DNA from: Spirochaetia bacterium
GTDB lineage: Bacteria > Spirochaetota > Spirochaetia > DSM-2461
DNA length: 64,000 nt
Direction: 5' to 3'
Assembly (NCBI GenBank): GCA_963666985.2
Contig: CAXXIA010000002.1
Span: 2,656,001-2,720,000, forward strand
Position numbers and translations under genes: made by a program. The notes under the pieces were generated by a model. The model saw only the letters and a list, made by a program, of their open reading frames with translations. It was not told where the DNA came from and did no database searches. Of this stretch, positions 27,651 through 32,770 are shown one piece after another (position 1 is the first letter of the stretch; each line of letters starts with the position of its first letter).

Positions 27651-28886
27651 TCACGCAGGTTCGAATTTCAAAGACACGATCCGCTTCTTTTTAACTTCCA
27701 GAACCGTATAGCGTCCTTCGGAACACGTGAGGACTGTTCCCGGCGTGGGGATTCGTTCGAGTTTCTCCAGCAAATATCCGCCGATTGTGTGCGTTCTGCT
27801 GTCGTGTTCCAAATTGAGTCCCAAAGTATCGGCGATGTCGTAAAAGTCGGCATCGCCCTGCATAATCCAGCCGCCGCTTTCATCGGGGATAATGGGATCG
27901 TCTCCTCCGGATTCCCTTTCATCGTACAGCTCGCCGAAGATTTCTTCCATGATGTCTTCTCTGGTTACAATGCCGTCCAGGCCTCCGTACTCGTCGAGAA
28001 CCACGGCAAGATGAATGGGCTCTTTTTTGAGTCGGAAGTAGAGTTCGTGAGCCTTCATCGTTCCGGGGACGAGGTAGGGCGCTGAAGCTATTGTTTTTAT
28101 CATGGCGCCGGGAGTTTTTTTCATGGCGCCCGCGAGGTCGGTAAGGGCAATTGATCCTGTTACGTGTTCTCCGTCTTTTTTAAGAACCGGAGCGCGGGAA
28201 TGTCCGGATTCGACAAAGCGGTCCATCGCTTCCGAGACGCTCATATCCTCGACGAGAGAGAACAGGTCGGTTCTATGAGTCATGATGGCTTCGACCGGCG
28301 TGTCGTTGATTCGAAAGACATTCCGAACCATTTCTTTTTCGAATGATTCCACAACACCCTCATTCTCAGCCGCTTTAACATGGTGCAGCAGGAATTCCAG
28401 TGTTAATTTGGGTGTTTCCTTTCCGGCGATCATTCGCGTGAGCGTACCGCTGATGGCGGTGACGATCCTGATGACGGGCCGGAAAATCCAAGAGAGAAAC
28501 CTTACCGCACGGACACTGCGGAGTGTGAGCTTTTCCGCGGTTTTCAGGGCAATCTGTTTCGGGGTGACTTCACAGAATATGAGAACCAGCAGCGTGAGAA
28601 TCCCCGTAGCCGCGGCAACGTAGGTATTTCCGAAGAGACGGATGGTCATGGATGTCGTCAGAGCGGAAGCGCCGATGTTGGCCAAGTTGTTGCCGATCAG
28701 AAGCGTCGTCAGGAGGATATCGGGCCGATCCGTCATGTTTTTAACAAGCCGGCCCCGTTTCCCTCGGTTTTCGGACATTGCGGAAATTTGTCCCGGAGTG
28801 AGCGAGGTGAAGGCCGTTTCAACCGATGAGAACAGAGCCGATGCAAGAATTAGCAGAATAAGAAACGCGAGCAGCCAGGCTGTCAT
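27651..28886 (-). CDS. Hemolysin-family CNNM/CBS/CorC protein
   Basis: FSSVETAF, LLIGNNLAN, GHSRAPV, VLDEYGG, EDIMEEIFGE; start at ATG 28886. Confidence 0.9.
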   Translation of the reverse strand: MTAWLLAFLILLILASALFSSVETAFTSLTPGQISAMSENRGKRGRLVKNMTDRPDILLTTLLIGNNLANIGASALTTSMTIRLFGNTYVAAATGILTLLVLIFCEVTPKQIALKTAEKLTLRSVRAVRFLSWIFRPVIRIVTAISGTLTRMIAGKETPKLTLEFLLHHVKAAENEGVVESFEKEMVRNVFRINDTPVEAIMTHRTDLFSLVEDMSVSEAMDRFVESGHSRAPVLKKDGEHVTGSIALTDLAGAMKKTPGAMIKTIASAPYLVPGTMKAHELYFRLKKEPIHLAVVLDEYGGLDGIVTREDIMEEIFGELYDERESGGDDPIIPDESGGWIMQGDADFYDIADTLGLNLEHDSRTHTIGGYLLEKLERIPTPGTVLTCSEGRYTVLEVKKKRIVSLKFEPA

Positions 28887-29046
28887 TCGGCGGATTGGAC
28901 GGCGGCGCGAGATGAAAACGCGCCGGATATAGGCAGGGGATCTTCCATAGATCTTTATCATCCCTTATCGGAGGCGGAGGGACAAGAGGCGGCGGGAAAT
29001 CCATTATCCGGTCGGTATGCCGGTTTCCCGAAAACGTTTCAGAGGG

Positions 29047-29079: not shown

Positions 29080-29175
29080 AAAACCTTATATAACAGCCTG
29101 TTGATATGATGTGAACTGTAAACCCCCAACCGATTATTTTTTCCCAGAGCCCTCCTCATGAGTGTCTCGGAGAGA

Positions 29176-29379
29176 AGAGCACGAATAAGAGCCCGGCAGC
29201 AAATAACGACGGTTGATCACTCTGATATTCGTGGATCAAGCCGAAGGCCCGCCTACATGGTCGTGATCCGTCGGGAGCTGCCTCAGACTAAAGGCGCGGG
29301 TCCGGCCGATATCGGCCTGTCGCATAGCAGGCGCGAGGATTCTCCTTTCCGTGTGCTGCCGGGCCCTCATTCGTGCTCT
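29176..29379 (-). ncRNA. Putative bridge RNA / seekRNA of the IS110-family element
   Basis: 26-bp closing stem (29176-29201 with 29354-29379) and two internal stem-loops whose segments match the flanking target and the donor junction. Confidence 0.75.
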
Positions 29380-29395
29380 CCTGTTTTCATATCCG

Positions 29396-30535
29396 TTAGG
29401 CTATGACTTCCTGGTGCTTGGATTCAACAGTTGTACCGATCGCCCAAACAAACCCAATGAGATCTCGAGCTACAGCAGTAATCACTTGCTGCTTTGTCTT
29501 CCCACGACCAAGAAGCCTCACGTACCTGGAATGAAGCCTGTGGCGAGCGGTGCCGGCAATCTCAATGACTTCGGCGCTGAGCCCCTCTTGGCGTGCCCGC
29601 AACCTGGGAGTCAGAGTTGGCTGAAATCGTGCCGACCAAGCCGCCTCGACAAGCACCCGGCGGAGGTGCGTGTTGCCTGTCTTGCTTATCCCTCCTCGCC
29701 GAACTCTCTCACCACTGGAGTGTTCACTGGGAACCAGACCGCTGTAACCCATGGCCTGCCGGGCGGTAGGGAATCGTGATAACTGACCAACTTCCGACAC
29801 GATGGTTACGGCGCTGATTTTCGCGATACCTCGCAGTGCCTGGAGGGCCGCTATCACCTCCTGCATGGACTCCGGAGCATTTTCCACGACCTCGTCGATG
29901 AGTTTCTCCAGGCGTTCGATTCGTTGGCCTTGGTGATGGATCTCATCCAGGTAGTCTGCCAGAGTTGCCTGTTGAGCGTACTGTTCGAATTTTACCTCTT
30001 TGCGTATCCATTCGAGGTAACGCTGCGTCCATGCTTTCATCTTCACTGTCGGACGTTTGCCATGCCTGAGCAGGAACTTACTCAGACGATGCCGAGCTCG
30101 AAGCTGATCCTGTTTTGCAGCTTCCCGTGCTCGGACCAGATCTCGAAGAGCCTCGTGTTCGGCGTCTGGCACCCAGACCGAAGTAAGGTCTCCTGCTCGG
30201 TAGGCTCGAGCCAATCGCTCGGCATCCCGCCGGTCAGTCTTGATCCGGTCACCGGGTTTCACCGGGATGAGTGTCGGGGCTACTACCTCACAGGTGCAGC
30301 CCAACTTCGTCAGCTGCCAGTACAATGCGTACCCGGTAGGTCCAGCTTCATAACAAGCCGTCCAAGTCGATTTCGGCCCCAGCTTGCCAAGCAGCTTCTT
30401 GATGCTCGGTTCCCGATTCGGGATGATACCGAGGTTTCTGACTTCTCCCCCGTTGGCTTCGGCAACCGCCACTGCAATTGTTTCAGCGTGAACGTCCAAA
30501 CCTACAAACCGCCCCACCGTCGTGTTAAGCTTCAT
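29396..30535 (-). CDS. IS110 family transposase/recombinase
   Basis: RuvC-like DEDD (GLDVH, YEAG, KTDRRDA) and C-terminal SEHSSG serine motif. Confidence 0.95.
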   Translation of the reverse strand: MKLNTTVGRFVGLDVHAETIAVAVAEANGGEVRNLGIIPNREPSIKKLLGKLGPKSTWTACYEAGPTGYALYWQLTKLGCTCEVVAPTLIPVKPGDRIKTDRRDAERLARAYRAGDLTSVWVPDAEHEALRDLVRAREAAKQDQLRARHRLSKFLLRHGKRPTVKMKAWTQRYLEWIRKEVKFEQYAQQATLADYLDEIHHQGQRIERLEKLIDEVVENAPESMQEVIAALQALRGIAKISAVTIVSEVGQLSRFPTARQAMGYSGLVPSEHSSGERVRRGGISKTGNTHLRRVLVEAAWSARFQPTLTPRLRARQEGLSAEVIEIAGTARHRLHSRYVRLLGRGKTKQQVITAVARDLIGFVWAIGTTVESKHQEVIA

Positions 30536-30658
30536 ATTGCCCCCCTCGTATGTAGCTCTGCGCTACTGTGTGTCTCACAAAAGCGTAACCTACGCGTTTG
30601 CGAGTGGGGGCATTCGGTTCACATCATTGTGACTAAAGGGGTTTCAACCGTCGGTTCC

Positions 30659-30691
30659 AAGCAATTTCATGAATTATGAAATTGCCTCAGG
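30659..30691. repeat. Palindromic REP-like element
   Basis: AAGCAATTTCAT-GAATT-ATGAAATTGCCTCAGG; inverted copy at 35505-35537. Confidence 0.7.
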
Positions 30692-30910
30692 GGTGAATTA
30701 TTCTTCTCATAACATGCCGGATACGGCAAACGAGAATGATTTGTTTCGCCGATTAGGTCAGGTCGGACAGACGGAATTTTCGGCTGCCTGGGATTTTCTC
30801 GGCCGAAAGCATCGATCCGTTTTTCAATTCGGCCTTAAAAATCTTGCCGCCGACCCTGCTGTCTTAGTATCTTTTTTGACGATATTTCCACTTACGCAAG
30901 GACACAAAAC

Positions 30911-32770
30911 ATGGCCAAAAGAAAGTTCAAGACGGAAGTCAGTCAGCTGCTGAACCTGTTAATTCATTCCCTTTATTCGCATAGCGAAATATTCCTTCGG
31001 GAACTCATTTCCAATGCATCCGATGCCTTGGACAAGCTGAAGTATCTCACTCTTACGGATGAAGGACTTAAAAATCTCGCTTTTAATCCGCGTATCGATA
31101 TCCGAATCGACGGACGGGGAAGCGGAACTCTCGTGATTGAGGACAACGGCATCGGCATGAACGATGAGGATTTGTCCGAGTCGCTTGGAACCATCGCCCG
31201 CTCGGGAACGAAAAACTTCATGGAGAAGCTCACCGGAGACGCCAAAAAGGATTCCAACCTCATCGGCCGTTTCGGTGTGGGATTCTATTCGTCGTTCATG
31301 GTGGCCGACAAGGTTGAGGTGATTTCCCGAAAGGTGGGTGAAGAGAAGGCCTATAAATGGATCAGCGACGGCGAGACCGGCTTTACTATTGAAGACGCCG
31401 AAAGAGAGACGCAGGGAACCACTGTTATTCTGTATCTGAACGAAACCGGTAAAGAGTATGATTCGCAATGGAAAATCAGTTCCGTCATCAAGAAGTATTC
31501 GGACCATATAGCCTTCCCCATTCATCTGCACTGGACCCAGACAACCGGTTCCGGGGACGATGAGAAAACCGAAGAGAAAGAAGAGCAGGTTAATGCCGCC
31601 AGCGCTCTCTGGAAAAGGCCTAAGTCCGAATTGAAGGACGAGGACTATAATGAGTTCTACAAGACCTTATCCCACGAAACCGATGATCCGATGTTTCGCA
31701 TCCACACCCGTGCCGAAGGAACCTTGGAATACACCACGCTGTTTTTTATTCCGAAAACCGCTCCTCCGGATCTGTATTACGCCGATTACAAGCCCGGAGT
31801 GAAGCTTTATGTAAAGAGGGTGTTCATCACCGATGACGAAAAGGAGCTTCTGCCGGTTTGGCTGCGCTTTGTCCGGGGAGTTATCGATTCGGAAGATCTG
31901 CCTCTGAATGTGAGCCGTGAAATTCTTCAGCAGAACAAGGTGATGGCCAAAATTCGGGAAGCTTCGGTGAAGAAGCTGCTCAGTGAATTCCAGAAGTTCT
32001 CGGAGAACGCCGAGGACTATGCCGAGTTTGTCGAACAGTACAATAGGCCTCTTAAAGAGGGGCTGTATTCGGATTGGGCTCACCGGGATGATCTTTTGTC
32101 GCTGGTCCGCTACAAATCCACCTCCGTGGAAGGCTGGACAAGTCTTAAGGAATACAAAGACAGAATGCCGGAAGATCAGAAGGCCATCTACTACATTGCC
32201 GGCGATAATGAGGATTCTTTGAGAAAATCTCCCCTTCTTGCTTCCTATAAAGAGAAGGGATATGAAGTTCTGATTATGGCCGATGAAATCGACGAGATTG
32301 TCACGCCGATGATCGGGCCCTTTGAGGAAAAGGAATTCAAGGCCATCAATCGTTCCGGCGCTCTGGATGATTTGAAGACCGAGGATGATAAGAAGAAGGA
32401 AAAGGACGCCGAGCCGGTTCTGAAAAAGATTAAAAAAGTCCTGGGAGAGGCCGTTAAGGATGTGGTGGCTTCCGCCCGGCTCGCCGATGCTCCGAGCTGC
32501 CTTGTTTCCGACGATGCGGATCCTTCGGCTCAGATGAGGCAGATGCTTAAGGCCATGGGTCAGAAGGACATTCCGGAGGCCACGTTTATCCTTGAGGTGA
32601 ATCCCGATCATCCGGTGGTGAAGGGACTGGCCGAGGAGAAAGACAAGGAACTCTTGGAAGATGTCGCGTATCTTCTCTACGAGCAGGCCCTTCTGGTTGA
32701 GGGCGTGGAATTGAAGGATCCGGTTGCCTTTGCCGCCCGGCTGAACCGCGTGGCCGCCAAGGCGCTGTAA
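30911..32770 (+). CDS. htpG: Chaperone HtpG (Hsp90)
   Basis: FLRELISNASDA, DNGIGM, FGVGFYS, LPLNVSREILQ. Confidence 0.97.
   Translation: MAKRKFKTEVSQLLNLLIHSLYSHSEIFLRELISNASDALDKLKYLTLTDEGLKNLAFNPRIDIRIDGRGSGTLVIEDNGIGMNDEDLSESLGTIARSGTKNFMEKLTGDAKKDSNLIGRFGVGFYSSFMVADKVEVISRKVGEEKAYKWISDGETGFTIEDAERETQGTTVILYLNETGKEYDSQWKISSVIKKYSDHIAFPIHLHWTQTTGSGDDEKTEEKEEQVNAASALWKRPKSELKDEDYNEFYKTLSHETDDPMFRIHTRAEGTLEYTTLFFIPKTAPPDLYYADYKPGVKLYVKRVFITDDEKELLPVWLRFVRGVIDSEDLPLNVSREILQQNKVMAKIREASVKKLLSEFQKFSENAEDYAEFVEQYNRPLKEGLYSDWAHRDDLLSLVRYKSTSVEGWTSLKEYKDRMPEDQKAIYYIAGDNEDSLRKSPLLASYKEKGYEVLIMADEIDEIVTPMIGPFEEKEFKAINRSGALDDLKTEDDKKKEKDAEPVLKKIKKVLGEAVKDVVASARLADAPSCLVSDDADPSAQMRQMLKAMGQKDIPEATFILEVNPDHPVVKGLAEEKDKELLEDVAYLLYEQALLVEGVELKDPVAFAARLNRVAAKAL

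What the first reader, a model, noticed from the sequence alone, without database searches (positions are those of the whole stretch)
29176..29379. Bridge/seek RNA whose guides can be read against its own insertion site
The non-coding region downstream of the recombinase is closed by a 26-bp stem and holds two internal loops. In RNA sense, loop 1 has GCCUGCU (29332-29326) and CCUUUAG (29294-29288) around a GGCCGAUAUCGGCC hairpin. Together they specify the target CCTTT-AG-CAGGC. The reconstructed empty site is CCTTT-AA-CAGGC, with one core mismatch. Loop 2 has AUAUCAG (29228-29222), identical to the donor junction ATATC-AG; the second donor guide (GACC, 29262-29259) matches only weakly. RNA-guided IS110 recombination is established. 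This looks like a complete, probably uncharacterised programmable recombinase with an AG core and evidence of core-mismatch tolerance.
Basis: partly seen in the sequence, partly recalled or inferred. Interest (0 to 1): 0.8.

Follow-up and report, generated by a model that had tools for sequence, protein, structure and literature searches.

The report
RNA-guided IS1111 jumping gene, guides confirmed
This is an intact bacterial jumping gene of a known RNA-guided type whose guide RNA spells out where it lands; relatives confirm the guides but show that the proposed two-letter core is really one shared letter.

Summary
The stem and guide motifs are at the stated coordinates. They lie downstream of an intact IS110-family recombinase in a 1,532-bp IS1111-type element with perfect 11-bp subterminal repeats.

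Target guiding is well supported. Across 27 guide pairs, flanks follow the guides at -4..-2 and +1..+6, beyond all 10,000 permutations. In 13 sister pairs, flanks follow their own guide at 82 of 112 differing positions and the sister's at 13.

The 'AG core with mismatch tolerance' is not supported. Left junctions read AG in 56 of 56 elements; right junctions read AG 40, AA 15, GT 1. That second base follows the right guide, and 9 of 11 empty targets of the AA clade read AA. Products therefore cross over between A and G, and this copy has a first-position right-arm mismatch.

The empty site was never observed. The left flank is host repeat A; the right 11 bases match ends of a second repeat, B.

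Verdict: a new, untested member of an established class. Activity is not shown.

The parts
29103..30634 (-). Whole IS1111-type element, 1,532 bp by the 7-bp-left / 3-bp-right convention; only full copy in the genome
29396..30535 (-). IS110-family DEDD recombinase, 379 aa, open frame; D14, E63, D101, D104 and S274 (S274 aligns with the IS621 catalytic serine)
   Evidence: PF01548 + PF02371; NF033542, 262.6 bits, cut-off 140
30617..30627 (-). Left subterminal inverted repeat, 11 bp, 7 bp from the end
29106..29116 (-). Right subterminal inverted repeat, perfect complement of the left one, 3 bp from the end
29173..29382 (-). Predicted bridge/seek RNA closed by a 29-bp stem (29382-29354 with 29201-29173); MFE folds put 23-43 pairs around both loops in 27 of 27 guide representatives
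   Evidence: transcript not shown
29325..29332 (-). Right target guide (pairs with the target top strand, about -1 to +6); lies 5' of the left target guide, as in IS1111 seekRNAs
   Evidence: order from PMC11187229
29304..29317 (-). Variable apical hairpin between the target guides; absent in the deltaproteobacterial clade
29288..29294 (-). Left target guide (covaries at -4..-2); its terminal AG is invariant
29259..29262 (-). Short right donor guide: GAC matches the three element bases after the crossover; fourth base varies among relatives
   Evidence: donor is constant here, so covariation cannot test it
29222..29228 (-). Left donor guide, identical to the predicted circle junction
   Evidence: compensatory changes in L031 and L126
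29117..29122 (-). -35-like hexamer (5 of 6) that meets a -10-like hexamer (30631-30626, 4 of 6) at 17-bp spacing only in the circle
   Evidence: circle junction; no promoter-like site in the linear locus; inference
30633..30634 (-). Left junction AG: A is the one base shared by donor and target; G is element-derived; product-level crossover lies between them
30635..30692 (-). Left flank = left half of host repeat A (about 110 bp, at least 21 copies), ending in the left target arm
29092..29102 (-). Right flank, first 11 bases: right target arm with one mismatch at +1; identical to the commonest outer end of host repeat B and unlike the repeat-A loop
29043..29094 (-). Right half of host repeat A

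Best explanation
A complete IS1111-group insertion sequence. Inferred from the family: the element circularises, the joined ends form a promoter, and the transcript yields the recombinase and a downstream two-arm RNA. Shown by comparison: the first arm holds a right guide, then a left guide, which specify about four bases left and six bases right of an invariant A. The second arm holds a 7-nt left donor guide and a 3-nt right donor guide for the circle junction. Products cross over just after the A: the base after it comes from the element at the left junction (always G) and from the target at the right junction. Donor and target therefore need share only that A. This copy's guides read (C)CTTT-A-GCAGGC, which fits the ends of host repeat B, and it sits at a site with one mismatch at +1.
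For: Family and catalytic residues. Ends and RNA position match IS1111 as defined in PMC11187229. Covariation: per-position match 62/67/95% at -4..-2 against 28/27/34% permuted; 88/94/99/87/77/61% at +1..+6 against 54/31/41/40/35/31%; no permutation of 10,000 reaches either sum (27 guide pairs, 47 distinct sites, 52 of 56 elements parsed). Sister-pair control: own guide 82, sister 13, neither 17 of 112 positions. Crossover: left AG in 56 of 56; right AG 40, AA 15, GT 1. Right-guide base versus right-junction base, after correcting one mis-parsed row (L031): G/G 30, A/A 12, A-guide at G site 3, G-guide at A site 1 (this copy), aberrant 1. Empty copies of the AA clade's target read AA in 9 of 11. 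Same-genome support for the target: a 76-bp left-end remnant at C1:1300948 is preceded by TTTT and followed by AG-CAGGC; 25 of 33 exact repeat-B ends are preceded by AA (16) or AG (9).
Against: No transcript, circle or empty allele was seen. There is one full copy only and no perfect target in the genome (30 one-mismatch sites, only 2 of them B ends). Scaffold pairs are mostly invariant: only 2 of 22 show a two-sided change. Positions -5, -6, +7, +8 do not covary. The AA cases outside this copy come from one clade, so they are few independent events. By loop geometry alone, AG sits where the IS621 core sits (PMC11208158), so the chemical cut site is not proven by junction sequences. Held-out relatives fit imperfectly: L131 5 of 6, L126 only with a one-base slip.
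Confidence: 0.85

Rival explanations
1. One reading: AG is a two-base core as CT is in IS621, and this insertion shows tolerance of a core mismatch. A variant: targets are always AG and the AA is inherited with the donor circle.
For: Both bottom-strand guides end in AG, and two bases follow the right guide where IS621 has its handshake guide. 40 of 56 elements have AG at both junctions.
Against: 12 of 47 distinct sites have an AA right junction with a matching guide, and sister L077 switches both guide and junction to AG. Empty targets read AA in 9 of 11, and in all 3 copies most like the filled flanks. With a top-strand cut after the second base (PMC11208158) an AA target would leave AA on the left, which is seen in 0 of 56. 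IS1111 members are reported to make no duplication (PMC11187229).
Confidence: 0.1
2. Site history A: the flanks never formed one target. The element entered a repeat-B end nested in repeat A, and a later one-armed (half-match) recombination or slippage removed the DNA between that junction and the perfect left arm in repeat A.
For: Left flank is repeat A up to the AG; the right 11 bases equal a B end; 0 of 18 intact A copies hold CAGGC. B does enter the A loop (1 of 21 copies, C2:512063). No collapsed-B footprint exists elsewhere in the genome. 2 of 4 left-end remnants run into AG-CAGG. Half-match insertion and partial excision are reported for IS110 (bioRxiv 10.64898/2026.08.31.748434; 10.64898/2026.08.14.744561).
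Against: The joined flanks give a 52-nt spacer, inside the normal 50-52 range of repeat A. The A loop is very variable. Only about 3 of the 11 B-like bases go beyond what the guide and repeat A already predict. It needs several events, and no intermediate was seen.
Confidence: 0.45
3. Site history B: a single ordinary insertion into a pre-existing site CCCCTTT-AA-CAGGCT (a variant repeat-A loop or an old collapsed B footprint).
For: Fewest steps after the site exists; normal spacer length; 11 of 12 guide matches make it among the best sites available, as no perfect site exists.
Against: No other A copy and no footprint shows this sequence.
Confidence: 0.5
4. The guide matches are chance, or the hairpin is only a terminator or RNA-stability element.
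For: The matches are short (7 nt) and were found by looking for them.
Against: conserved scaffold with variation concentrated in the guide slots.
Confidence: 0.02

Closest known systems
IS1111-group seekRNA elements (ISEc11, ISKpn4, ISPst6, ISPa11; PMC11187229)
   Same: Subterminal repeats with 7-bp and 3-bp extensions, long downstream non-coding region, top-strand guide 5' of bottom-strand guide, overlapping guides, junction promoter, no duplication, repeat targets, natural reprogramming.
   Different: Different target and scaffold sequence; 379-aa protein; this element has no experimental data. The passages I read describe target guides only, whereas a donor arm is visible here.
ISCARN28 / ISPye17 / ISEc45 subgroup (ISfinder names; proteins seen in supplement file 6 of PMC11187229)
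   Same: By eye the proteins share this recombinase's motifs around the catalytic residues. ISCARN28 is one of six elements whose bridge RNA guides were predicted in PMC11208160.
   Different: Identity was not computed. A 14-nt scaffold motif of this RNA was not found in the supplements searched (one file in each unreadable, one cut). The figure with their cores could not be seen.
IS621 / ISCro4 (IS622) bridge recombinases (PMC11208160, PMC11208158)
   Same: DEDD plus serine enzyme; two-arm RNA with target and donor guides; short right donor guide.
   Different: Distant protein (E 4.6e-09 and 2.3e-10); RNA upstream there, downstream here; guide order reversed; shared two-base CT core there, one shared A at product level here.
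IS1111-attC group (named in PMC11187229; original papers not read)
   Same: The AA clade of relatives sits in integron attC-like sites (consensus recalled).
   Different: This copy does not target attC. The ISKpn4 insertion point tabulated in PMC13604230 looks like a different part of attC.

Membership tests
IS1111 group (IS110 family) | DEDD RuvC-like domain plus C-terminal serine domain | tested here: met
IS1111 group (IS110 family) | Subterminal inverted repeats of 11-13 bp with 7-bp left and 3-bp right extensions | tested here: met
   11-bp perfect repeats, 7 and 3; definition
IS1111 group (IS110 family) | Longer non-coding region downstream of the gene | tested here: met
   293 bp downstream, 99 bp upstream
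IS1111 group (IS110 family) | Two target guides, top-strand match 5' of bottom-strand match | tested here: met
   order
IS1111 group (IS110 family) | No target-site duplication | tested here: met
   Left AG and right AA here and in 14 relatives; empty targets
IS1111 group (IS110 family) | Circular intermediate with a junction promoter | tested here: inconclusive
   Promoter-like junction predicted; no circle joint in contigs, which drop rare forms
IS1111 group (IS110 family) | RNA co-purifies with the transposase and is needed for movement | not testable with these tools
   Needs bench work
IS621-type bridge system | Bispecific RNA with a donor-binding loop | tested here: inconclusive
   Left donor guide matches, with 2 compensatory cases and 1 uncompensated edge change (L070); right donor guide 3 nt and untestable
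IS621-type bridge system | Dinucleotide core shared by donor and target | tested here: not met
   13 of 47 distinct sites have AG left and AA right; empty targets AA in 9 of 11
IS621-type bridge system | RNA encoded upstream of the recombinase | tested here: not met

The most novel reading that the evidence does not exclude
This widespread IS1111 clade is a bridge recombinase with a one-base core: only an A is shared by donor and target, the next base is programmable through the right guide, and the invariant G ending the left guide acts as a post-exchange handshake with the donor. In this genome it has also left natural half-match scars: a junction fusing two different host repeats, and left-end stubs joined directly to the right target arm.
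Probability: 0.35. Interest if true: 0.6.

Novelty: new member of a known kind. Interest (0 to 1): 0.36.

Why it matters
The class is established, so one more element is of modest interest. The by-products are more useful. First, 27 natural guide pairs on one scaffold define the programming rule (about -4 to +6 around an A) before any bench work. Second, a review (PMC13604230) lists the core dinucleotide as a limit on bridge-recombinase targeting; a clade that needs one shared base would relax that limit. Third, if the fused flanks and stubs are half-match scars, they are natural examples of an off-target route so far shown mainly in vitro and in editing data.

Tried and rejected
Rfam: no match at E up to 1. 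Close relatives by DNA: none in 400 phylum genomes; in 60 nearer relatives only a left-end stub in G411; none in plasmids or viral contigs. The metagenome pattern scan gave 2 chance hits without the element.

Sequencing runs: no RNA holder listed. Four runs were laid as contigs (4 of 8 listed) and showed neither an empty-site joint nor a circle joint. I first took run X2 for an empty allele and dropped that: it holds near-identical pieces of the element (2 differences in 317 bases), so it may be filled at this site, and the tables were cut.

My idea that the C1:1300948 stub disrupts a stop codon was wrong; the gene ends 10 bp before it. The idea that repeat B derives from IS1182 is unresolved: an IS1182 transposase lies between B-type ends but may simply have inserted into B. 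One search had a faulty pattern and was redone.

Rows left out: 25 of 81 loci (24 lacked an end, L074 lacked the RNA motif); 4 of 56 (L058, L081, L086, L099); L031; 2 of 6 held-out loci gave no motif match and L129's match was off-target.

Literature: a search for IS110 + bridge + 'single-nucleotide core' found 0 papers; IS110 + 'core mismatch' + bridge found 1, whose passage concerns bases next to the core. Tetu and Holmes 2008 is not held. bioRxiv supplements are closed and figures are not held, so published core assignments for IS1111 members could not be seen. Earlier-findings look-ups by sequence and by words were blank.

Full report
OBSERVATION. The region folds far better than shuffles (z = -6.98, 0 of 200). 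Upstream lies an open 379-codon frame that matches PF01548 and PF02371 and NF033542, with D14, E63, D101, D104 and S274 in place. Perfect 11-bp inverted repeats sit 7 bp and 3 bp inside the ends. Joining the ends creates a -35/-10-like pair at 17-bp spacing; the linear locus has none. These are the IS1111 features given in PMC11187229 (abstract, parts 1 and 3, passages and supplement search read). The genome holds one recombinase and one copy of the RNA.

RELATIVES. A scan of species genomes confirmed 96 of 175 candidates and kept 80 loci at 52-74% identity. Of 81 loci including the window, 56 had both ends and the RNA, and 52 could be parsed into 47 distinct sites and 27 guide pairs. The alignment shows an invariant two-arm scaffold with variation concentrated in the two target-guide slots and the apical hairpins. 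The consensus structure has 22 pairs, of which only 2 show two-sided change, so the fold rests on conservation rather than covariation. A long closing stem is predicted in 27 of 27 representatives.

GUIDE TEST. Flanks match their own left guide at -4, -3, -2 in 62, 67 and 95% (permuted 28, 27, 34%). They match their own right guide at +1..+6 in 88, 94, 99, 87, 77 and 61% (permuted 54, 31, 41, 40, 35, 31%). No permutation of 10,000 reached either sum; -6, -5, +7 and +8 were at chance. Because kin are not independent, I paired each element with its closest relative carrying a different guide. At 112 differing positions in 13 disjoint pairs, the flank followed its own guide 82 times, the sister's 13, neither 17. 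A covariance model found 6 further loci in 5 of 37 same-family genomes. Two kept a right end: L131 matches 5 of 6 with a mismatch at +1, and L126 matches only with a one-base slip. The left donor guide changes together with the donor in L031 and L126; L070 has an uncompensated change at its edge. The right donor guide is a constant 3-nt match and cannot be tested this way.

THE CORE. Left junctions read AG in 56 of 56; right junctions read AG 40, AA 15, GT 1. The second base on the right follows the right guide: G/G 30, A/A 12, A-guide on G 3 (wobble), G-guide on A 1 (this copy), aberrant 1. These counts correct L031, which parsed one base out of register. The last base of the left guide stays G throughout. 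To ask whether AA comes from target or donor, I searched five AA-clade genomes for their target repeat, which looks like integron attC (consensus recalled). There were 14 matches in 2 of 5 genomes: 3 filled and 11 empty, with 9 AA and 2 AG; one AA hit may be chance. The three empty copies most like the filled flanks are all AA. So the target supplies AA, the element supplies the left G, and products cross over between A and G. In IS621 the top strand is cut after the second core base (PMC11208158, passages). On that geometry the core here would be the two bases ending in A, TA in most targets and CA in the donor. That step is inference, and loop geometry alone would place the core at AG. Either way this copy's mismatch is at the first base of the right target arm, in 1 of 47 sites, which is weak evidence for any tolerance. 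The classical IS1111 convention, 7 bp left and no duplication, already implies that AG need not be repeated.

THE SITE. Both flanks belong to a host repeat, A. Of 21 copies with both anchors, 18 are intact; none contains CAGGC, and the nearest read AG-AATCA where this site has AA-CAGGCT. The first 11 right-flank bases equal the outer end of a second repeat, B, about 130-170 bp with long terminal inverted repeats. Of 33 exact B ends, 16 are preceded by AA and 9 by AG, so B ends fit the right guide and are the likely local target. One A copy contains a B (C2:512063). Four left-end stubs of related elements lie elsewhere. One (C1:1300948) has TTTT before it and AG-CAGGC after it; a second (C2:2335179) runs into AG-CAGG of a B-like end; two show no clear match. 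The first gives independent support for the guide's target. The second could equally be B inserted into the element. The genome has no perfect target and 30 one-mismatch sites. The site's history is open. A single insertion into a pre-formed site keeps the normal spacer length (52 nt). A two-step route through a nested B with a half-match deletion explains the chimaera and has precedent (bioRxiv 10.64898/2026.08.31.748434, parts 1 and 3 read; 10.64898/2026.08.14.744561, part 1 and passages). I rate them about even.

MECHANISM. Shown by comparison: which RNA segments specify the target, their order and span, and where products cross over. Inferred from the family: circle formation, the junction promoter, RNA binding, serine-linked strand exchange. 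Not shown: expression or present-day activity.

COMPARISON. It works like an RNA-guided bridge recombinase and meets every IS1111 feature I could test. It fails two IS621-type features (upstream RNA, shared dinucleotide). PMC11208160 (passages and supplement search; preprint passages) predicts bridge RNAs in 93.0% of IS1111 elements and shows ISCARN28, whose protein resembles this one by eye. Solved relatives are distant. The best-ranked plasmid relatives are about 49-53% identical. Other papers seen: PMC13626964 (passages), PMC13604230 (passages), 10.1101/2025.05.14.653916 (passages), 10.64898/2026.03.19.712850 (abstract and outline). My searches found no paper that describes a one-base core, but figures, bioRxiv supplements and most subscription papers were not visible.

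VERDICT. A real, intact, untested IS1111 element with correctly identified target guides; a new member of a known kind. Interest 0.36.

Noticed in passing
G000 genome-wide; window 30692-30635 and 29094-29043: Repeat A: about 110-bp intergenic repeat, at least 21 two-anchor copies, fixed 50-52-nt spacing with a variable central hairpin loop. Origin unknown.
   Followed up: partly
G000 genome-wide, e.g. C1:474666-474827, C2:446295-446435: Repeat B: 130-170-bp elements with long terminal inverted repeats; the flanking 4-mers usually differ on the two sides, so they are not simple duplications.
   Followed up: partly
L108 (G000:C2:1503423-1505292): IS1182-family transposase (521 aa, NF033551) enclosed between repeat-B-type ends; either the parent of B or an insertion into B.
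   Followed up: partly
G000 C1:1300948, C2:2335179, C2:148690, C2:2249193; L105 (G411): Five solo left-end stubs of this element family (38-165 bp aligned); no solo right end or solo RNA was found in G000.
   Followed up: partly
L064-L099 (mostly Myxococcales/delta-proteobacterial MAGs): A clade of relatives sits at one end of attC-like sites and lacks the apical hairpin of the target arm; possibly a second attC-targeting IS1111 group.
   Followed up: partly
L024-L045, L087, L090 (Acidobacteriota MAGs): Relatives repeatedly land in identical flanks that look like the ends of other insertion sequences.
   Followed up: no
L030: Right junction lacks the invariant A and does not match its guide; possibly an adjacent deletion.
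   Followed up: no
run X2 laid on window 29100-30630: A related strain appears to hold several versions of the element: one near-identical, one about 92% identical at higher depth, one with internal deletions.
   Followed up: no
window 27651-28961 and 30911-32770: Neighbours are a CNNM/CorC-type CBS-domain gene (below curated cut-offs) and htpG, divergently oriented; the element is intergenic.
   Followed up: yes
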